Positions 1,371-8,883 of a stretch of 8,883 bases of DNA are shown in pieces. The translations under genes were made by a program, and so were the position numbers. Source of the DNA: a virus (lineage: Duplodnaviria > Heunggongvirae > Uroviricota > Caudoviricetes); the IMG/VR virus record IMGVR_UViG_2667527918_000004; one strand, 5' to 3'. The notes beneath the pieces were generated by a model. The model ran no database searches, had not been told where the DNA came from, and was given only the letters and a program-made list of their open reading frames with translations. Numbering within the stretch: position 1 is the first letter of the stretch; each line of letters begins with the position of its first letter.

Positions 1371-1757
1371 TTACTGCCTTTTTGCCAGACCACCTGCCGC
1401 CATGCTGGCAGCCACCTCAGCAGAAACACGAAACGACGTTCCCGGTGAAACAAATATCACTGAACCATTACATTTTGTATGCAGTGTCGCCAGTGCCACC
1501 ACCGTAACCTGCCCCGTTTCGTCTCCGGTAACAATGCCTGGCTGTTCAGGAACTGACTCGCCTTTATGCGCGGTCGGATCATCTTTCGATGGTGAGTACG
1601 TATCCGGCTCTGCGACCTCCCCCGCATCTCCAAGCTCTTCCTCCAGTTCCGCCACTCGCTGCGCAATATCTGCCGCACTACCGGAGACATCCGGTTCACG
1701 CCCCAGCCTCTCAGCCAGCTCACAAAGACGTTTCAGGTTTTCTTCTTTCGTAGCCAT
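1371..1757 (-). CDS. FI: DNA-packaging protein FI, lambda gpFI-like
   Basis: Conserved C-terminal block VTVVAL..LHT......V.PGT.FRVSA.VAA.M...GLA matches recalled lambda gpFI, with an acidic linker region. I place the start at ATG 1755..1757 (MATKEE..., AGGAG 8 nt upstream) rather than the ORF-track start at 1790. Confidence 0.8.
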   Translation of the reverse strand: MATKEENLKRLCELAERLGREPDVSGSAADIAQRVAELEEELGDAGEVAEPDTYSPSKDDPTAHKGESVPEQPGIVTGDETGQVTVVALATLHTKCNGSVIFVSPGTSFRVSAEVAASMAAGGLAKRQ

Positions 1758-1771
1758 ACCCGCTCCTGATT

Positions 1772-1800
1772 GAATGAAAAACGGGAGCATTTAGCTCCCG
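1772..1800 (-). terminator. intrinsic-terminator-like hairpin between E and FI (7-bp GC-rich stem, 5-nt loop, U5 tract)
   Basis: On the minus strand: CGGGAGC-UAAAU-GCUCCCG (1800..1782) followed by UUUUUCAUU (1781..1773). It starts 9 nt after the E stop codon and ends before the FI RBS. Confidence 0.45.
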
Positions 1801-1808
1801 CTCACGGA

Positions 1809-2837
1809 TTATTTCACCTGCACCACCACAAACTCATCCGGATCCGGCAGCACCATCAGCGGCGCGGACTGCGTCATGGTGAATTCACGCGCCGGATCAC
1901 CCACGGTCAGCCAGTGTTTCGGATAACGGGAAGACGCCACCACGCCTTCAGACAATGCCTGCGCATCCTGAATGGCACCGTAGCAACGAATACCCTCTGC
2001 GGCCGTATTTCCCAGTACCAGTGTGCCGTCCGGCAGATAACGTTTTTCGGTACCGTCCTCTGCCACATAGGACGTTTTTGCCACCACGATTGCCAGATCA
2101 CCATAATACCCTTTGAAGGACACCACCGCCCCCAGGTCTTTCACTGCCGTTTCCAGCTGTGAATTTGAGCCACGACGGGTATCCAGTTTTTCGCGGAACA
2201 GCTTAAAGCCATTCAGCAGACGCCAGACCTTACCATCCATAATGGCAATATTGATGGTGCCGGAAGCAAAATCACAGTACGCATCCAGATCATGCGTCGG
2301 ATCAAAGGTATCGCGGTCCTGAGCGCTCCACTCCGTCCCTCCTGCCTGCGTAATGTTATTTCCCACCGACCGGCCAAAATCGACCTCAACAGTTTCAAAC
2401 TGCTCTCCTTCCATGGTGTATTTGCCATACAGCACGGCATTCACCGCCTGCATCTCTTCCACCTGGACAATGGCGTGCTCTTCCTGTTTGAGGTTATCGG
2501 TGATGATACGCAGGCGACGGTAAGCCGGGCCGTTCAGCTGGGCCGGATCTTCACCGGGAAGACGCTCCACCGCCTGCTGGTAATTAAATTCGTGTTTCGG
2601 CTTAACGTAGCCCGGGCGCAGTACACGAGTTTCACCGCCACGGTGACGCAACACCTTTCCTTCAACAACCGGGGAGACATAGGCCGCCACCGGCGTTTTT
2701 CCGGTAATTTTGTCCAGCATTACCTCTTCGGTATGGAAATTCACCGTACGGCGGAAAAACAGCTCCAGAAACAGCGCACGAAATTTAACTTTTTGTTCGG
2801 TATAACCGAGTAACTGGCGGGTCGTAAACAATCCCAT
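1809..2837 (-). CDS. E: major capsid protein, lambda gpE-like
   Basis: 342-aa ORF, near lambda gpE length (341 aa as recalled). Long collinear matches: PGYVKPKHE, AYRR.RII, QVEEMQAV.AVL.GKYTM.GE, NNITQ.GGTEWS, KLDTRRGSNS.LETAVKDLG, LGNT, RYPK.W.T.GDPAREFTM.QSAPLM. ATG at 2837 with AAGGAA about 8 nt upstream. Confidence 0.95.
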   Translation of the reverse strand: MGLFTTRQLLGYTEQKVKFRALFLELFFRRTVNFHTEEVMLDKITGKTPVAAYVSPVVEGKVLRHRGGETRVLRPGYVKPKHEFNYQQAVERLPGEDPAQLNGPAYRRLRIITDNLKQEEHAIVQVEEMQAVNAVLYGKYTMEGEQFETVEVDFGRSVGNNITQAGGTEWSAQDRDTFDPTHDLDAYCDFASGTINIAIMDGKVWRLLNGFKLFREKLDTRRGSNSQLETAVKDLGAVVSFKGYYGDLAIVVAKTSYVAEDGTEKRYLPDGTLVLGNTAAEGIRCYGAIQDAQALSEGVVASSRYPKHWLTVGDPAREFTMTQSAPLMVLPDPDEFVVVQVK

Positions 2838-2894
2838 AAATCAGTTCCTTTCATTCAGAAATCAGTCAGGCTACCGCAGTGACCTGATAAAATG

Positions 2895-3242
2895 TTACGG
2901 CAGCGCTGCGTGACTCAGGGCACTGCCGGCAAAGGCATTCGCCTTTTTGTGTGTATCCACTCTCTCAGGCCAGTGGATGGCCTCCGTCGCAAAGGTCCCC
3001 GACTTGTAATACGTCAGCACCGTCTCTGTACCTTCAAGCGGCAGTACCAGTATGCCAACCACATGGCCTGCCTTCTGTCCGTCCCAGACCACCAGTTTCC
3101 CGGTATCCTCATCCAGCATCAGGGGCGTCAGAGCCGGTGTTGCCGAGGAAATCCCGCTGCAGCCTGTGGCGGTATGGGCCGGATCATTACCGGCAAAAAT
3201 ACGTACTTCCGCACGCTGTTCAGTGATGGTTTTCGTTACCAT
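2895..3242 (-). CDS. D: head decoration protein, lambda gpD-like
   Basis: 115-aa ORF. Motifs DPAHTAT, TPLMLD, KLV.WDG, VGIL, YKSGTF, AFAG match recalled lambda gpD. ATG at 3242 with GAGG about 10 nt upstream. Sits between C and E as in lambda. Confidence 0.9.
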   Translation of the reverse strand: MVTKTITEQRAEVRIFAGNDPAHTATGCSGISSATPALTPLMLDEDTGKLVVWDGQKAGHVVGILVLPLEGTETVLTYYKSGTFATEAIHWPERVDTHKKANAFAGSALSHAALP

Positions 3243-3278
3243 ATTGTAAAAACCTCATATTGATGGTCAGCACTGACT

Positions 3279-4163
3279 TCATGGCATGGCCATGAGCATT
3301 TTCACGTCCGCATCACCGTCTGCTGACGTCTGTGGCACGCCACCCTGTACCGCTGCCGGTGAATGGTTCGCCATGAAATGTTCAAACATGGCGGGTGTGG
3401 GTGGNNNNNNNNNNNNNNNNNNNNNNNNNNNNNNNNNNNNNNNNNNNNNNNNNNNNNNNNNNNNNNNNNNNNNNNNNNNNNNNNNNNNNNNNNNNNNNNN
3501 NNNNNNNNNNNNNNNNNNNNNNNNNNNNNNNNNNNNNNNNNNNNNNNNNNNNAGTTTTTCAGCCTGCGCCTCTGCCCCTTTTGCCTCATCCAGGGCCATA
3601 ATCTGATCACGAAGTGAGGGTCCGGCATTCGCCTGCGGTGAAGCAGCCAGAATCGGACGGGCTTTTTCCACCGTCATCTCCGGCATCGCCGCCAGCGTTG
3701 CCGCCAGTTGTTCACGTCCTTTCGCCTCTTCACATGCCATAATGCGATCGGCTTCACTCTGCGCAGATACACCAGATTGTTGCGGTGCCGCCACGGCCAG
3801 AATCGCCCGGGCCTGCTCAACGCTCATACCCTGTTGCCCTGCCAGCATCGTGGCCAGTTGTTCACGTCCTTTCGCTTCCTGACACGTCAGGATCCCCATC
3901 ACTCGCTGGTTCTCCTGCGCGGCAGCCTCCGTTGCAGTTAATTGCGGCATAGTGCCTCCTGTATCGTGTGTGTTCAGCGTCGCAGCCATCACGCTGATGG
4001 CGTCCGACGCATTGATTAATTCATCCGCCAGTTCGGCCTCAATACCGGACTGACCTTCAAAAACGGCGGCCTCTGTTCCCATAACCGCATCCACAGATAA
4101 ACCGGTATACATCGCCACTTTTTCAGCAAACATCCGGCGCGCCGCATCAATGCGCTGCTGCAT
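3279..4163 (-). CDS. possible nested in-frame scaffolding protein (lambda Nu3-like), translated from an internal start of the C frame
   Basis: Inference from lambda, where Nu3 is the C-terminal third of the C reading frame started internally. Candidate in-frame ATGs at 4161..4163 (M231) and 4131..4133 (M241) lie near the region aligned to the lambda Nu3 start. Neither has a convincing Shine-Dalgarno sequence. Confidence 0.3.
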   Translation of the reverse strand: MQQRIDAARRMFAEKVAMYTGLSVDAVMGTEAAVFEGQSGIEAELADELINASDAISVMAATLNTHDTGGTMPQLTATEAAAQENQRVMGILTCQEAKGREQLATMLAGQQGMSVEQARAILAVAAPQQSGVSAQSEADRIMACEEAKGREQLAATLAAMPEMTVEKARPILAASPQANAGPSLRDQIMALDEAKGAEAQAEKXXXXXXXXXXXXXXXXXXXXXXXXXXXXXXXXXXXXXXXXXXXXXXXXXXPPTPAMFEHFMANHSPAAVQGGVPQTSADGDADVKMLMAMP

Positions 4164-4853
4164 GTCCTGGCGAACCTTTGCTGGCAGGGATTCAAACTGA
4201 TTGCCATCCACCTTGTGCGATCCGGCGTAAATCAGCGTGATATCCACACCGGCCTGTGCCAGATGACCGGCATAGCTGACATGGCCCATCATCACCCCAA
4301 TGGAGCCGATACGGGATGTCTGGGTAACCAGCCGTCGGGAGCAGGCCGATGCCAGTAACATGGCGGCTGAACAGGCCGTGTCATTGCACAGTGCCCAGAC
4401 AGGCTTCAGCTGCCGGAGACGGTAAATCATGTCAGCGCAGTCAAACGCGCCGGTGGCCTGCCCGCCAGAACTGTCAATGTCCAGCAGTACGCCCCGTACC
4501 TGAGTGTCCGCCATTGCCTGCTGAAGACAGGCGACAATGCCGTCATAGCCAGTCATTCCGGAAAATGGCCGCATGCCACCCAGCCGGTGTACCAGCGTGC
4601 CGGTCACCGGCAGTACAGCAATACCGTTCACCACCCGGTAAACACGGGCAGGTCGTTTGCCTCCGGCCATGTACTCGTCCGTTTCAGCCAGCATCCCGGG
4701 AGCGTCAAGCTGTACCTGCTGTTGCGGTACCGAAAGGCTTGCTGCGCCCATCTCACGCCCGAGCGCGCAAAAGAAAACCCGCGCATAGGCGGGCTCCAGA
4801 AGCAGCGGCTCATTGAATGCCGCAGCGATAATATGTGAAAGATTACGTCTCAC
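3279..4853 (-). CDS. C: head maturation protease / minor capsid protein C (S49 peptidase family), lambda gpC-like, with C-terminal Nu3-type scaffold region; interrupted by a 148-N gap
   Basis: N-terminal 300 aa collinear with recalled lambda gpC (AFNEPL.LEPAYARVFFCAL, NGIAVLPV.GTLV, SGMTGY.GI, GAFDCAD.I, KPVWAL.ND..CSA..LLASA.SRRLVTQT.R.GSIGVMM.H, ITLIY.GSHKVDGN, GLADEL.N..DAI.VM). GTG start at 4851..4853 with GGAGA about 10 nt upstream, overlapping the end of B by 11 nt. The reading frame is continuous across the N-run only if the stated gap length is taken literally. Confidence 0.85.
   Translation of the reverse strand: MRRNLSHIIAAAFNEPLLLEPAYARVFFCALGREMGAASLSVPQQQVQLDAPGMLAETDEYMAGGKRPARVYRVVNGIAVLPVTGTLVHRLGGMRPFSGMTGYDGIVACLQQAMADTQVRGVLLDIDSSGGQATGAFDCADMIYRLRQLKPVWALCNDTACSAAMLLASACSRRLVTQTSRIGSIGVMMGHVSYAGHLAQAGVDITLIYAGSHKVDGNQFESLPAKVRQDMQQRIDAARRMFAEKVAMYTGLSVDAVMGTEAAVFEGQSGIEAELADELINASDAISVMAATLNTHDTGGTMPQLTATEAAAQENQRVMGILTCQEAKGREQLATMLAGQQGMSVEQARAILAVAAPQQSGVSAQSEADRIMACEEAKGREQLAATLAAMPEMTVEKARPILAASPQANAGPSLRDQIMALDEAKGAEAQAEKXXXXXXXXXXXXXXXXXXXXXXXXXXXXXXXXXXXXXXXXXXXXXXXXXXPPTPAMFEHFMANHSPAAVQGGVPQTSADGDADVKMLMAMP
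3405..3552. other. assembly gap (148 N)
   Basis: Uninterrupted run of N inside the C gene, directly adjacent to the tandem-repeat region. Confidence 0.99.
3553..3900 (-). repeat. diverged tandem repeat, period about 141-150 nt, at least 3 copies (third copy runs into the N gap); encodes a repeated 47-50 aa unit in the C/Nu3 scaffold region
   Basis: Exact 23-mer gccagttgttcacgtcctttcgc at 3703..3725 and 3853..3875 (150 nt apart). Shared blocks gccataat.{2}gatc and ccagaatcg..cgggc between the copies at 3553..3700 and 3701..3850. Protein repeats ..C.EAKGREQLA..LA......VE.AR.ILA...PQ at residues about 318-367, 368-417 and 418 onward. Confidence 0.85.
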
Positions 4854-6436
4854 GTGATGTTGTCTCCTCTTCCGGCCTGCGACTCTCCGCTATCTGCTGC
4901 TGATACGCCTGGGCTATCCACACCGGACGTGAGAGTCCGGCTTTTTCGCGCTCTGCGGATTCCCTGACCTGCTGGCGGAAAATGTCCTGATAATCTTCGC
5001 CCATCAGTGCCAGTTCTTTCTCATACGTGCTCAGTCCGGCCTCAATGCGCATCACCGATTCCTGGACCTCCTTGAGCCCGTCAATGGCCATTCTTCCGGA
5101 GCTAATCCACTCTGCCCGTGACCAGGCTGAACGCGCCTGGTAAAAATCAAAACGCGCCCGTGGCGGACGAATAATCCCCCGAAGAAGCGCCTCTTCCAGC
5201 CAGCAGGAAAACATCTGCGTGGCCAGCCGGGCCGCAATAAATTTTCGCCGCCCCATAAAATAGCGCCACGACTCATTGGCGGAGGCGCGGGCACTTGAGT
5301 AACTGACCTTCGAGTAATCACGGGACAACTGTTCGTAGGAAACGCCAAGACCGGCTGCAATATACCGCAGCAGCGCCTGTTCAAGCGCCGAAAATCCATT
5401 GTCTGAATCCTGCGCTGTCTGCAGGTTCAGCGCATCGCCAGGAAAAAAGGTGCGGAATTTTAACACCGCCCAGCGTCACGTTATTCGTGTCATACCAGCG
5501 GGTGAACTTCTCCAGAATATTAATAAGCGGATTATCCTGCTGACCTTGCGGTGCCCCCGCGATATATTCAAATGCCTTTTCGGTATCAAGTTCACTTTCG
5601 ATTGTGGCTGCATACATCGCCTTCACAATGGCCGACTGAAGCTGCGTGGCCTGCAGGGAGTCCAGCATCTTCATCCGCTCCATTACGCTGTAAAACTGAT
5701 TAGCCCCACGGGTCTGCCCGTCCTCCACCGGCTCAAAAATATGCAGCATGGCCGGACGCCCGGTGGGAAGCTCACGCGGGATCCGCTCCCAGCGTCCGGC
5801 ACCAGAGAACGGAAAATCATCCTCACAGATATGGTACGCAATCGCCCGCCCATACCGATCGACCTCAACCCCGGCCCGCAGAAAGTGGTTCCCCATACCG
5901 TGTCCTGGCGTGTCCACCCGTTTCGGACTCACGGCTTTAAAACGCGTACGGAATAACTGCGTGGTTTCCGTATCCCAGACCGGCTGCACAAAGATTTCGC
6001 CGTTAAAGGCATGCACGCCCACCCCTTCACGGATAAATTCCGTAAACGTGCGTTTCCCTTCCACGTCGATCTCGCCAAACATTCCTTCTGCGTATTCCGA
6101 CCAGGCTGCTTCCACCTCCCCGACAAAACTTTTTGCCGTGGTCTCCCGCATCCCCAGCCAACGCCAGTTCAGACGGTAGCTGATAAGAAACATGTGCCCG
6201 ACGATATGATCCTTATGCAGGGCCACCGCATTAGCCGCGATACCGTTATTGCGCACCAGATCATCTGCCCGGGCATTCCCCAGACGCAATGCAGGCAACA
6301 GGGCCGCATCGGCACTCTGCGCCGGTGGTAACCACTCTGCCATTTGCCCGCCAAATCCTGCGCCGCCTCCGTTGTAGCTGAGACTCTCACGAAGCGGAAC
6401 GCCGTTCACATCAATCAGGACAGGCGTTCGTTTCAT
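4843..6436 (-). CDS. B: portal protein, lambda gpB-like, interrupted by an apparent +1 frameshift in a T6 run (complement of 5443..5448)
   Basis: Two adjacent minus-strand ORFs (5381..6436 and 4843..5466) are together collinear with recalled lambda gpB: DAALLP, GNARADDLVRNNG.AANA, RTFT..IREGV..HAFNGE.FVQ, VSPKR, FEPVEDGQTRGAN.FYSVME.MKMLD.LQ.TQLQSAIVKAMYAATIESELDT in the first; PGD.LNLQTAQD.DNG, LRYIAAGLGVSYEQLSR, ARASANESW.YFMGRRKF, GRMAIDGLKEVQE.VM.IEAGLSTYEKE in the second. ATG at 6434..6436 overlaps the W stop (ATGA), with GGGAGTGAGG upstream. Confidence 0.85.
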
Positions 6437-6636
6437 AACCTCACTCCCAGCGGTCGGCGGCGTCGGGTCGTACCCAGAACCGACTCCGCATCGTTGATCG
6501 CACGGTTAAGCTCATTCAGGGACGCTGCCGTATATTCGATCCTGCGACCGTCTTTCTGTACCGACACAACCCGTTTACCGGTTAATAAATCAAGGCGCGC
6601 CTGACGCAGCGCCTGCAGTTCAGCGACTGTAACCAT
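6433..6636 (-). CDS. W: head-tail joining protein W, lambda gpW-like
   Basis: 67-aa ORF. Core LL/MTGKRV..VQKDGRR.E.TA.S and RRRR near the C-terminus match recalled lambda gpW (68 aa). The A stop TGA is directly followed by the W ATG (TGAATG), with GGAGGAG upstream. Confidence 0.9.
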   Translation of the reverse strand: MVTVAELQALRQARLDLLTGKRVVSVQKDGRRIEYTAASLNELNRAINDAESVLGTTRRRRPLGVRL

Positions 6637-8547
6637 TCACTCCTCCGGACAGCTTCGCTGCCAGTTCTTCAAGGGTCGGTTGTGCAGTTGCATCCTTGCG
6701 GGATGCAACTGCACAGCCAGATCAAGTTGCCAGCGTTGCACGGACACACGTAATGCCGCATAGGCATACACCAGGCAGTCCAGCGCTTCGTTACGCCGCT
6801 TTTTGTTATCCCACAACAGACGCATCTTTCCTTTTTCCCACTTTTCCACCAGTTCCTCCGCCACCAGTTGTTGTGCCTCTGTCTGCGAAAAAATCTCCGG
6901 ATTATCAGGAAAGCGGATGGCATACGATGTGGCCTCATTCACAGGGGTGGGATCGGCCTTCATTCGGGCATAGAGAATTTCTTTTGCGGTATCCGTCCCC
7001 ACCTCACACAGATACACACCCCGCTGATTGCGGGTTTTCGGCATGGTGATCACCGGCTTGCCATAGACAGAGGCACCTTTTACCGGCAGTACCCGGAAAA
7101 TACCGTGTTTTTTTGACCTCTGATACACGATTTCGCCATCGATCCCCCCGATATCCCAGCAGACACGGGAAATGGTCATTTCGGTACCGTCTGCATGGCG
7201 GTATTTTTTATTGATCGCCGCATCCACACGTAACAGCGTCTCTTCCTCATCAGGACGTCCCATGATGATGATTTTATCCACCAGAAAGGCTTCCTCTCCC
7301 GGAGCCCACCCCCAGACATACATCTCAAAACGGTTTCGCTGCGAGTCAATGCCCGCCGTCAGATAAACCACCCGGACAGGCACCGTTGCCGTGTAAGGCA
7401 CAACCTTATCCATCAGTACCTGGTGATCGAGTTTTTCGCCCACGGCCTCTTCCCAGGTCTCGCCCAGCGTGGTGTTCACAAAAGTTTTCACGCCGTTGGG
7501 ATCTTTCAGTGCATCCAGCCAGTCACAGACTATCTGTACCCTGGTGGTGAACGGACTGTACGCCGTCCATATATGGAAAGTGATGGAGCGCGGCGGCGGA
7601 ATTTCATTACCCGAAGCACTGAAAAACGTCAGACCGTCACACGTCCACATCCCGGTATTGTCACAAATCCAGCGCCCCCCGGTCTGATCAAGTTCAGACT
7701 GACGGATCACGCAGCCATTATGTTCACACAGGTAATACACCGTTTCCGGTTTACCCTTCTCCCATTTCAGGCCAAACGACGTCGCATCATCGCCAAACTT
7801 CAGATACTGCTCCTCCCCGCAATGAGGGCAAGGGACATAAAACCGCATGAAATGCGCAGATTCATTCGCAGCTTTTTCAATCTGACAGGAGCCTTTAATT
7901 TTTGGCGTTGAACCGCGTATGGATTTTGGCCATACCGAACCTTCAATACGTTTATCGCCAAGCAGTGTTGGCGAACCTTCTTTTTCCACATCCGGTTCAA
8001 ACGAGGAGAGTTCGTCATAGCAGACCACATCGACAGATTTTTCACGGTAGTTTTTGGCAGCAGCACCACCCAAACACCAGAACCCCACACCAGAGGAAAA
8101 ACGCTTCAGTGTGAGCGTATTATCCCGGTGTTTCCGGCCCAGCCAGGGAGAAAGTTTTTTCAGGCAAGGAACATCACGAATTGTTGCTTCCACGTGAGAC
8201 TTCATAAAATCTTCAGCAGCTGAGTCCGTCGGCTGAAAAAGAAGAGTGTTGCGGGATTTGTGCTCAATAAAATACCCGATCACACCAAGCACCATTTTTG
8301 TATAACCAACACGGGCAGATTTAATCAGGTTAACTGTACGAATCTCGTCATTGCCCATGCAGTTCATGATGGCGACCTGAAACTGCAGCGTTTTCCATTC
8401 CCCCTCACCGTATGACGATTCTTTAGGCAGGTAATAATTTTGATCGGCCCATTCTACAGCCGTCACCGGCAATACCCTGACCAGTGGCTGCAGTGCGATA
8501 GTGACTGCCACCATCATATTACTCAGTTGTTGTTCTGATATATTCAT
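6637..8547 (-). CDS. A: terminase large subunit, lambda gpA-like
   Basis: Extensive collinear matches to recalled lambda gpA: MNIS start, TAVEWAD.NYYLPKES, KSARVGY.KM.LGV..YFIEHK.RNTL, GKKHRDNTLT.KRF, FWCLGG.AAKNYREKSVDV, GSPT.LGDKRIEGSVWPKSIRGSTPK, HFMRF.V.CPHCGEEQYLKFGD, FHIWTAYSPFT, KTFVNTTLGETWE, YLTAGIDSQ, GASVYGKPV, LWD.KKRRNEALDC. I place the start at ATG 8545..8547 (MNIS...) rather than the ORF-track TTG at 8604. It overlaps the end of Nu1 by 29 nt, as in lambda. Confidence 0.95.
   Translation of the reverse strand: MNISEQQLSNMMVAVTIALQPLVRVLPVTAVEWADQNYYLPKESSYGEGEWKTLQFQVAIMNCMGNDEIRTVNLIKSARVGYTKMVLGVIGYFIEHKSRNTLLFQPTDSAAEDFMKSHVEATIRDVPCLKKLSPWLGRKHRDNTLTLKRFSSGVGFWCLGGAAAKNYREKSVDVVCYDELSSFEPDVEKEGSPTLLGDKRIEGSVWPKSIRGSTPKIKGSCQIEKAANESAHFMRFYVPCPHCGEEQYLKFGDDATSFGLKWEKGKPETVYYLCEHNGCVIRQSELDQTGGRWICDNTGMWTCDGLTFFSASGNEIPPPRSITFHIWTAYSPFTTRVQIVCDWLDALKDPNGVKTFVNTTLGETWEEAVGEKLDHQVLMDKVVPYTATVPVRVVYLTAGIDSQRNRFEMYVWGWAPGEEAFLVDKIIIMGRPDEEETLLRVDAAINKKYRHADGTEMTISRVCWDIGGIDGEIVYQRSKKHGIFRVLPVKGASVYGKPVITMPKTRNQRGVYLCEVGTDTAKEILYARMKADPTPVNEATSYAIRFPDNPEIFSQTEAQQLVAEELVEKWEKGKMRLLWDNKKRRNEALDCLVYAYAALRVSVQRWQLDLAVQLHPARMQLHNRPLKNWQRSCPEE
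6681..6715. repeat. perfect 15-bp inverted repeat (hairpin with 5-nt loop) inside the 3' end of A
   Basis: tgtgcagttgcatcc (6681..6695), loop ttgcg (6696..6700), ggatgcaactgcaca (6701..6715). Every position of the arms is Watson-Crick complementary. It lies 42 nt upstream of the A stop, on the minus strand. Confidence 0.8.
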
Positions 8548-8842
8548 CGAGTAAATCCGGTAATTTATCCCCCGCACGCGCGCACTGATTCGCTCCCTTA
8601 GCAATAAGGATTTTCAGATGATCAATATGACGCGGCGTTAAATCCGGGAACTGTCGTTGCATGGACAAAGGAATGGAGTCAAGCGTACTGGATAAAGCCA
8701 TCGCCAGCTTACTAAGGGCAAAAATACAAAATCCGGTATCGATAAGATTTCCTTTTGACACCTGATTTTTTAACTGCTGTGCGACAGCCTGTTCTGCGGT
8801 CAGTTCCCATCTGGCAATGAGTAGTTTGAGGTGTACTGGCAA
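8519..8842 (-). CDS. nu1: terminase small subunit, lambda Nu1-like, C-terminal (gpA-interacting) half only; N-terminal DNA-binding half not encoded in frame
   Basis: 107-aa ORF aligning to the C-terminal ~100 aa of recalled lambda Nu1 (LT..QA.AQ.LKN, FC.F.LS..A...S.LD..PLS.QR.FP.L..RH.D.LK, LP.LL.EYI). The first in-frame start is TTG at 8840..8842, and an in-frame stop (TAG, complement of 8852..8854) lies 3 codons upstream. Confidence 0.75.
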   Translation of the reverse strand: MPVHLKLLIARWELTAEQAVAQQLKNQVSKGNLIDTGFCIFALSKLAMALSSTLDSIPLSMQRQFPDLTPRHIDHLKILIAKGANQCARAGDKLPDLLDEYIRTTTE

Positions 8843-8883
8843 TAGCGGACACTACCATTTGTTCTTTTTTTAAGCAGCCATCT

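What the first reader, a model, noticed from the sequence alone, without database searches (positions are those of the whole stretch)
3553..3900. Tandem repeat expansion in the scaffold-encoding (Nu3-like) 3' part of gene C
At least three diverged copies of a 141-150 nt unit encode repeated 47-50 aa segments (..C.EAKGREQLA..LA....VE.AR.ILA..PQ...). As I recall lambda gpC/Nu3, this motif occurs once there, which would make this C about 85 aa longer than lambda gpC (524 versus 439 aa, gap included). The copies are diverged rather than identical, which argues for a real duplication history, not only an assembly artefact. A multimerised scaffold domain could change scaffold-capsid stoichiometry or procapsid assembly.
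Basis: partly seen in the sequence, partly recalled or inferred. Interest (0 to 1): 0.6.

Follow-up and report, generated by a model that had tools for sequence, protein, structure and literature searches.

The report
Known triplicated scaffold motif, phage 21-type
The repeat is real, but it is the long-known "Tri box" triplication in the head protease/scaffold gene of phage 21-type prophages, found in about a third of complete E. coli genomes, so it is ordinary.

Summary
Observation confirmed. On the minus strand, gene C (3279-4853) carries three diverged in-frame copies of a 47-52 aa unit. They start at 3914, 3758 and 3617, and the third runs into the N gap.

It is not new. The gene is about 93% identical in DNA to phage 21 gene 5/6, the homologue of lambda C/Nu3. 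The phage 21 GenBank record M81255.1 already annotates these segments as "Tri1 box", "Tri box" and "Tri3 box".

A Shigella flexneri chromosome that is 99.96% identical to window 3553-8883 fills the 148-N gap with 80 nt. That gives a 501-aa protein with exactly three units, not 524 aa.

The three-unit form occurs in 1,865 of 5,426 complete E. coli genomes and in about 20 sequenced phages, including Gifsy-1. Lambda has one unit, which is the norm across the wider family.

Units match each other by position between the E. coli and Salmonella lineages, and substitutions fall mostly at third codon positions. The triplication is therefore old and selected at the protein level.

Each unit is predicted to form three short helices. 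No Pfam family or solved structure matches it, and its role is only inferred: a scaffold module for binding coat protein or for self-association.

The surrounding prophage is degraded, with frameshifts in the portal and terminase genes.

The parts
3279..4853 (-). Gene C, the homologue of phage 21 gene 5. It encodes an S49 prohead protease with a C-terminal scaffold part. It reads as 524 codons because of the N run; the true length is 501 aa.
   Evidence: ORF. About 93% DNA identity to phage 21 gene 5 and other phages. The gap-free 501-aa version is in L007.
3978..4415 (-). Peptidase S49 (SppA-like) domain, aa 147-292.
   Evidence: Pfam PF01343, E = 2.4e-33. Lambda gpC matches the solved SppA structures 3rst and 4kwb.
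3279..3950 (-). Nested in-frame scaffold gene, the homologue of phage 21 gene 6 and lambda Nu3. ATG at 3950-3948, AGGAGG at 3960-3955. 200 aa once the gap is filled.
   Evidence: The SD and ATG are identical to phage 21 and the O121 prophage. Gene 6 is annotated in M81255.1 and as 'scaffolding protein' in OL657228. It matches PHROG head scaffolding and capsid assembly families with 3 matched stretches.
3759..3914 (-). Unit 1 (Tri1), aa 314-365: ENQRVMGILTCQEAKGREQLATMLAGQQGMSVEQARAILAVAAPQQSGVSAQ. It is orthologous to lambda's single unit.
   Evidence: The Tri1 box of M81255.1 maps to its core.
3618..3758 (-). Unit 2 (Tri2), aa 366-412: SEADRIMACEEAKGREQLAATLAAMPEMTVEKARPILAASPQANAGP.
   Evidence: It corresponds to the 'Tri box' of M81255.1.
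3553..3617 (-). Visible start of unit 3 (Tri3), SLRDQIMALDEAKGAEAQAEK..., which continues into the gap.
   Evidence: The complete unit in L007 is SLRDQIMALDEAKGAEAQAEKLAACPGMTVENARAVLAAASGRAEPVSAS.
3405..3552 (.). Assembly gap of 148 N. It hides about 80 nt, the rest of unit 3. The N run is 69 nt too long.
   Evidence: Alignments to phage 21 and the O121 prophage and to the 99.96%-identical S. flexneri locus.
3279..3404 (-). Conserved C-terminal tail after the last unit, (TT)AMFEHFMANHSPAAVQGG...DADVKMLMAMP, plus the stop codon. It is homologous to lambda's TALDRLMQGAPAPLAAG...DLLNTPV. Bases 3395 and 3401 next to the gap differ from the relatives.

Best explanation
The window is the head-gene block of a degraded phage 21-type lambdoid prophage, almost certainly from Shigella flexneri or a very close E. 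coli.

Gene C (phage 21 gene 5) encodes an S49 serine prohead protease. Its C-terminal 200 aa are also made separately, from an internal SD and ATG, as the scaffolding protein (phage 21 gp6, lambda Nu3 homologue).

In this lineage one module of about 44 aa plus a short Pro/Gln/Ala linker has been triplicated in frame. Lambda has that module once. The three copies are the Tri1, Tri and Tri3 boxes of phage 21. The triplication is old and is maintained by selection on the protein.

Inferred, not shown: each module folds into three short helices around the conserved EAKGRE...PGMTVEQA core. It probably serves as a contact module of the scaffold, binding coat protein or other scaffold chains. Three modules per chain would then give multivalent contacts. 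The same modules on the full-length protein would carry the protease into the procapsid.
For: Identity of the gene:
- About 93% DNA identity to phage 21 gene 5/6 and about 19 other phages.
- M81255.1 annotates the Tri1, Tri and Tri3 repeat_regions in gene 6.
- Gene order terminase-W-portal-C/Nu3-D(shp)-E matches.
- An S49 domain is present.

Gap and copy number:
- S. flexneri L007 is 99.96% identical to window 3553-8883 and gives 80 nt in the gap, 501 aa and exactly three units.

The three-unit form is common and stable:
- 1,865 of 5,426 complete E. coli genomes carry it.
- 58 of 60 evenly sampled records have the same 613-nt span.
- About 20 phages including Gifsy-1 have it.

Lambda has one unit.

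In the wider family, the unit profile finds 1,582 cluster representatives. Of the best 140 new ones, 129 have one unit, 8 have two and 3 have three.

The triplication is old:
- Units pair by position between the E. coli and Salmonella lineages, u1-u1 at 0.82-0.84, u2-u2 at 0.64-0.71 and u3-u3 at 0.62-0.65. Identity within one protein is only 0.42-0.58.

Selection acts on the protein:
- Against phage 21, 35 of 46 substitutions in the units are at third codon positions, with 28 synonymous and 12 non-synonymous codon changes.

Fold:
- A single unit is predicted as three helices with pLDDT 86.3.
- PHROG scaffold families match with three stretches.

Mechanistic analogy:
- Small helical or HTH motifs of P22, phi29, SPP1 and 80alpha scaffolds bind coat protein (PMC11565965, PMC11922011).
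- Lambda Nu3 interacts with itself, with C and with E in two-hybrid tests (PMC3224144).
Against: - The function of the unit has never been shown. The GenBank note says 'function unknown; putative'.
- The whole scaffold model has low confidence, pLDDT 54.6.
- No solved structure matches by sequence or by fold.
- No Pfam family covers the unit.
- Natural variants lack 19 aa of unit 2 (P0010, P0014, and H124 in E. coli) or all of unit 2 (P0032), so three full units may not be strictly needed.
- In this window the prophage has frameshifted portal and terminase genes, so the gene probably does no work here.
Confidence: 0.85

Rival explanations
1. The repeat is an assembly artefact, a collapsed or duplicated segment next to a gap, and is not present in the real genome.
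For: The repeat borders a 148-N gap, and the two bases nearest the gap look erroneous.
Against: The same three diverged units are in the Sanger-era phage 21 record, in a complete S. flexneri chromosome that is 99.96% identical to window 3553-8883, and in 1,865 complete E. coli genomes. The copies are only 58-70% identical in DNA, too diverged to be mis-assembled.
Confidence: 0.01
2. The gap hides one or more extra units, four or more in all, making this copy longer than phage 21's.
For: The N run is 69 nt longer than the phage 21 equivalent. Copy number does vary across the family.
Against: 69 nt is about half a unit, not a whole one. The 99.96%-identical S. flexneri locus has 80 nt there. In the spread sample, 58 of 60 E. 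coli records have the standard span and none is longer.
Confidence: 0.03
3. The repetition serves a DNA- or RNA-level purpose, such as repeated protein-binding sites (CII-type TTGYN6TTGY), or an antisense gene, rather than a protein repeat.
For: OL657228 annotates two CII-pattern matches on the antisense strand of this region. The window has TTGCCGCCAGTTGT at 3698-3711. Antisense ORFs of 55-77 aa exist.
Against: Substitutions against phage 21 are concentrated at third positions of the gene C frame. The repeat is conserved as protein in lineages whose proteins are only about 50-60% identical. The CII sites are simple pattern matches. Only one of the three units carries the pattern.
Confidence: 0.02
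4. The units are passive helical spacers that set the length or reach of the scaffold and have no specific binding surface of their own. The conserved C-terminal tail would make the coat contact.
For: Variants lacking part or all of unit 2 occur naturally. Lambda carries a 36-aa acidic linker where phage 21 has none, so the lengths partly compensate. The tail after the last unit is conserved from lambda to phage 21.
Against: Every unit keeps the same invariant residues, E-A-x-G-x-E...A..L...A...L. The motif is kept in 1,582 clusters across distant lineages. A pure spacer would not need that.
Confidence: 0.2

Closest known systems
Phage 21 genes 5 and 6 with Tri1/Tri/Tri3 boxes (GenBank M81255.1; complete genome OL657228.1). 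From memory, the paper is Smith & Feiss 1993, Gene 126:1-7; it was not available in the library.
   Same: Same gene, same nested scaffold start, same three units at the same positions, same tail and same neighbouring genes. About 93% DNA identity over gene C, and equal length (501 aa) once the gap is filled.
   Different: About 7% DNA divergence. The window copy sits in a degraded Shigella/E. coli prophage with frameshifted portal and terminase genes and carries an assembly gap.
Lambda C / Nu3 (NC_001416 4418-5737)
   Same: S49 protease with an in-frame nested scaffold gene. 57% protein identity over the whole gene. One copy of the same unit, most like unit 1, followed by a homologous tail. 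Conserved AGGAGG and ATG at the homologous internal start.
   Different: One unit instead of three. An extra acidic linker of about 36 aa lies upstream of the unit. 439 aa against 501 aa.
Gifsy-1 and other Salmonella prophage gpC homologues
   Same: Three units, each orthologous by position to the E. coli units.
   Different: 53-72% protein identity, and the C-terminal tail is longer and different.
C-terminal helix-turn-helix coat-binding domain of the P22 scaffolding protein (and the helical motifs of phi29, SPP1 and 80alpha scaffolds)
   Same: A possible functional analogue: a small helical module in a largely disordered scaffold (PMC11565965, PMC11922011). The unit here is predicted as three short helices.
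   Different: No sequence or fold similarity was detected. The P22 module is single, not repeated. Binding by the Tri unit has not been shown.

Membership tests
Phage 21 gene 5/6 type (lambda C/Nu3-type S49 prohead protease with nested scaffold) | N-terminal S49 (SppA-like) peptidase domain | tested here: met
   PF01343, E = 2.4e-33, 115.7 bits against a cutoff of 24.9. PHROG 53 head maturation protease, E = 2.3e-183.
Phage 21 gene 5/6 type (lambda C/Nu3-type S49 prohead protease with nested scaffold) | In-frame internal SD and ATG giving a separate scaffold protein from the 3' part | tested here: met
   AGGAGGCACTATG at 3960-3948 is identical to phage 21, where gene 6 is annotated. The homologous AGGAGG-ATG is present in lambda. 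Actual translation was not testable here.
Phage 21 gene 5/6 type (lambda C/Nu3-type S49 prohead protease with nested scaffold) | Position in the head operon: terminase, W/gp3, portal, C/Nu3, D/shp, major capsid protein | tested here: met
   ORF order matches M81255.1. The window is collinear with phage 21 over 1635-8451 at 88-91% identity.
Phage 21 gene 5/6 type (lambda C/Nu3-type S49 prohead protease with nested scaffold) | Three Tri boxes followed by the conserved tail | tested here: met
   Units 1 and 2 are complete and unit 3 is begun in the window. Unit 3 is completed in the 99.96%-identical locus L007.
Phage 21 gene 5/6 type (lambda C/Nu3-type S49 prohead protease with nested scaffold) | Catalytic serine and general base of the S49 protease intact | not tested
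   The CSA motif (S162) is invariant between the window, phage 21 and lambda. The catalytic residues were not mapped against SppA.
P22-type scaffold coat-binding helix-turn-helix | Detectable sequence or fold similarity to the solved coat-binding HTH | tested here: not met
   The profile search of PDB sequences gave nothing significant; the best hit was E = 0.012, to a designed repeat protein. Foldseek against the PDB gave no match at E <= 0.001. A 46-aa query has little power, so this does not exclude a similar function.
P22-type scaffold coat-binding helix-turn-helix | Direct binding to the major capsid protein | not testable with these tools
   This needs binding assays, procapsid cryo-EM or complex prediction.

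The most novel reading that the evidence does not exclude
The Tri unit is a widespread module of about 44 aa and three helices that no domain database describes. It has no Pfam family and no solved structure, yet its profile finds at least 1,582 clusters (at 50% identity) across phages and prophages.

On this reading it is the actual coat-binding or self-association element of S49-protease/Nu3-type scaffolds. Its copy number, one to three and gained independently in several lineages, would tune scaffold valency.

Its function has been marked 'unknown' since the phage 21 record was deposited. Natural one-, two- and three-unit variants offer a ready test system.
Probability: 0.35. Interest if true: 0.35.

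Novelty: already known. Interest (0 to 1): 0.1.

Why it matters
It matters little as a discovery. The triplication was annotated in phage 21 decades ago and is carried by a third of complete E. coli genomes.

Two practical points follow.
- The 148-N gap overstates the gene length, and the true protein is 501 aa.
- The prophage is a degraded remnant, so this copy probably does nothing.

The one open question is what the conserved unit does in lambda-type scaffolds. It has no domain-family entry and no structure. Natural copy-number variants (one in lambda, three in phage 21, and deletion forms) would make that testable.

Tried and rejected
- Tandem Repeats Finder found nothing; the copies are too diverged.
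- A PDB sequence search with the unit profile and with lambda gpC found only SppA for the protease part and nothing for the unit.
- AlphaFold of the whole 199-aa scaffold gave pLDDT 54.6, too low for a fold search.
- The single-unit model was good (pLDDT 86.3), but Foldseek against the PDB gave only E > 5.
- Pfam and NCBIfam have no family for the unit.
- Literature searches did not retrieve the phage 21 head-gene paper. The lambda gpNu3 paper (PMC3247018) is not held. The prior description therefore rests on the GenBank annotation of M81255.1.
- The first homologous-protein search returned mostly fragments at contig ends. It was useful for variants but not for counting copies, which was done with the representative-library profile search instead.
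- The MAFFT alignment placed lambda's C-terminal tail against unit 2. Inspection with more homologues shows the tail is homologous to the phage 21 tail, so a 'degenerate second unit in lambda' was rejected.
- An apparent parity in scaffold length (lambda Nu3 201 aa, phage 21 gp6 200 aa) was not pursued. It depends on the RefSeq start at 5132, which lacks an SD, whereas the homologous start has AGGAGG.

Full report
**What is in the window.**
All long ORFs lie on the minus strand and form a lambda-type head operon:
- terminase large subunit, 6637-8604
- a W/gp3-like head-completion gene, 6433-6636
- a portal gene split into 5381-6436 and 4843-5466
- gene C, 3279-4853
- a D/shp-like decoration gene, 2895-3242
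- the major capsid gene, 1809-2837

Gene C contains a run of 148 N at 3405-3552.

**The observation.**
The translated gene shows three consecutive related segments, starting at aa 314, 366 and 413. On the minus strand these are nt 3914, 3758 and 3617. The periods are 156 and 141 nt, and the third segment is cut by the gap.

I measured the similarity on a gap-free relative. Local alignment scores between units are 90-106, against shuffle means of 24-26. That gives z = 13.5-18, and none of 2000 shuffles reached the observed score. DNA identity between units is 58-70%.

The repeat finder recovers a 94-nt pair at 73% identity and a 32-nt pair at 75%. Tandem Repeats Finder reports nothing at this divergence.

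**What it is.**
A megablast of gene C against phage genomes gives 90-93% identity over the whole gene to phage 21 and about 19 relatives, including ev017, 4A7, Lambda_4C10, 1W, 3W, D2 and the PhiR series.

The phage 21 head-operon record M81255.1 annotates gene 5 and an in-frame nested gene 6 with its own ribosome-binding site. They map onto the cores of the three units.

The complete phage 21 genome calls the two products "capsid protease/scaffolding protein" and "scaffolding protein", the homologues of lambda C and Nu3. Phage 21 gp5 is 501 aa with three units. Lambda gpC is 439 aa with one unit, plus an extra acidic linker of about 36 aa upstream.

The N-terminal part of the window protein is an S49 peptidase domain. 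The internal AGGAGG and ATG at 3960-3948 are identical to those of phage 21.

**The gap.**
Up to the gap, the window is identical over about 400 nt to an E. coli O121 prophage. In that prophage and in phage 21 the missing stretch is 79-80 nt, not 148.

I searched reference genomes for a distinctive 33-nt palindrome from the window's terminase gene. This found Shigella flexneri SFBU1023 and E. coli ECMA0423. The S. flexneri locus is 99.96% identical to window 3553-8883 and 99.5% identical to 2814-3403. It fills the gap with 80 nt and encodes a 501-aa protein. That protein has exactly three units (52, 47 and 50 aa) followed by the tail TTAMFEHF...LMAMP.

The two mismatches beside the gap, at 3395 and 3401, look like contig-end errors. 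The 524-aa figure is therefore an artefact of the N run.

**How common it is.**
The scaffold region matches 1,870 of 5,426 complete E. coli genomes, 1,865 of them over at least 80% of the query, with up to five copies per genome. In an even sample of 60 records, 58 have exactly the 613-nt three-unit span. One has a 57-nt deletion and one is truncated.

A protein search of phage genomes finds the full three-unit scaffold in about 20 records, including Salmonella phage Gifsy-1.

A profile of the unit was searched against 1.84 billion cluster representatives. It finds 1,582 proteins at E <= 0.001. Of the best 140 new representatives, 129 have one unit, 8 have two and 3 have three. Among proteins of at least 380 aa the split is 46, 1 and 1.

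One unit is therefore the rule across the family. Three units are the fixed state of one very abundant enterobacterial lineage.

**History of the repeat.**
Units of the E. coli type are most similar to the unit at the same position in Salmonella-type proteins. Identities are u1-u1 0.82-0.84, u2-u2 0.64-0.71 and u3-u3 0.62-0.65. Identity between units within one protein is only 0.42-0.58. Lambda's single unit is closest to unit 1.

The triplication therefore predates the split of these lineages. Distant lineages such as P0114 and P0094/P0179 have their own two-unit forms. In P0114 and P0094 the two units resemble each other (0.62-0.63) more than they resemble units of proteins outside their own lineage, which points to independent duplications.

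In one E. coli variant (P0035) units 2 and 3 are 85% identical, suggesting recent duplication or gene conversion. In-frame deletion variants also exist. P0010 and P0014 lack 19 aa of unit 2, and P0032 lacks all of unit 2.

Against phage 21, 35 of 46 substitutions within the units are at third codon positions, with 28 synonymous and 12 non-synonymous codon changes. Selection acts on the protein in the gene C frame. This argues against a DNA-level or antisense role.

**Structure and likely mechanism.**
The whole 199-aa scaffold is predicted as a string of helices at low confidence (pLDDT 54.6), which fits a flexible scaffold. A single unit is predicted with confidence (pLDDT 86.3) as three short helices. 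A Pro/Gln/Ala-rich linker follows.

The invariant positions are E-A-x-G-x-E, then A, L, A and L on the later helices. No solved structure matches by sequence or fold, and no Pfam or NCBIfam family covers the unit. PHROG scaffold and capsid-assembly families match it three times per protein.

From the literature:
- Lambda Nu3 interacts with itself, with C and with E in two-hybrid tests (PMC3224144).
- Small helical or HTH motifs mediate coat binding in the P22, phi29, SPP1 and 80alpha scaffolds (PMC11565965, PMC11922011).

My best reading, which is inferred, is that the unit is a contact module of the scaffold. Three units would give multivalent contacts, and the same units on the full-length protein would take the protease into the procapsid.

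The main rival is that the units are mere spacers and the conserved tail makes the coat contact. The tolerated deletions fit that view, but the strict motif conservation does not.

The major capsid protein here is 63% identical to lambda gpE and of equal length. From my own knowledge, phage 21 builds lambda-like heads. Nothing suggests a different lattice.

**Context.**
The prophage is degraded. The portal gene carries a +1 frameshift at a T6 run. The terminase large subunit has its last ~25 codons shifted, by a small change that creates a perfect 14-bp-stem palindrome. Both changes are shared with the S. flexneri chromosome, so they are real and not errors in the window.

**Verdict.**
However, the feature is the known Tri-box triplication of phage 21-type C/Nu3 genes and is common in E. 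coli and Shigella prophages. Its length was overestimated because of the gap. The only open point is the unknown function of the conserved unit.

Noticed in passing
window 5381-6436 and 4843-5466 (minus strand); shift at about 5452-5457: The portal gene is split by a +1 frameshift. The window reads CACC-TTTTTT-CC where phage 21 has CACC-TTTT-CCC. The 99.96%-identical S. flexneri chromosome has the same sequence, so this is a real pseudogene and not a sequencing error in the window.
   Followed up: partly
window 6679-6719, 3' end of the terminase large-subunit gene: There is a perfect palindrome with a 14-bp stem, GTGCAGTTGCATCC-(6 nt)-GGATGCAACTGCAC. The closest E. coli relative has GTGCTGGCGGCATCC in the left arm. 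A 4-base change with a 1-nt loss has made the left arm the exact reverse complement of the right arm, which is the signature of a quasi-palindrome template-switch mutation. It shifts the last ~25 codons of terminase, the part that in lambda contacts the portal (from my own knowledge). The exact palindrome also occurs in S. flexneri SFBU1023 and E. coli ECMA0423.
   Followed up: partly
window 3393-3552: The 148-N gap is 69 nt longer than the real sequence, which is 80 nt in L007. Bases 3395 and 3401 next to it differ from all relatives and turn ...SASTTAMF into ...PPTPAMF, so they are probably contig-end errors.
   Followed up: yes
window 7822 and 7950 (terminase large subunit): The window and S. 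flexneri L007 differ by two compensating 1-nt indels 128 nt apart. The window's reading frame stays open through this stretch, and by eye against lambda gpA recalled from memory its translation looks lambda-like. The errors or mutations are therefore probably on the L007 side.
   Followed up: no
L003 (lambda) 2333 versus 2535-2545: RefSeq starts lambda nu3 at 5132 (201 aa), where no Shine-Dalgarno sequence is visible. The position homologous to the phage 21 gene 6 start has AGGAGG 4 nt before ATG (MTKETQ..., which would give 131 aa). The annotated lambda Nu3 start may be too far upstream.
   Followed up: partly
proteins P0010, P0014, P0032, P0035; E. coli hit H124: Natural copy-number and length variants of the scaffold exist. 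P0014 has a 19-aa in-frame deletion in unit 2 (53 member sequences), and strain 98198 has a 57-nt deletion. P0032 has lost all of unit 2. In P0035 units 2 and 3 are 85% identical, which suggests recent duplication or gene conversion.
   Followed up: partly
window 3698-3711 (+ strand); OL657228.1 5314-5327 and 5548-5561: The phage 21 genome record annotates two CII-binding pattern matches (TTGYN6TTGY) antisense to the scaffold gene. The window has TTGCCGCCAGTTGT inside unit 2. This is probably a chance match to a loose pattern.
   Followed up: no
protein P0085 (270 aa, representative library): This predicted protein joins a DNA-methyltransferase-like N-terminus (DPPY motif) to a three-unit Nu3-like C-terminus. 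It is likely a rearranged prophage or a gene-calling artefact.
   Followed up: no
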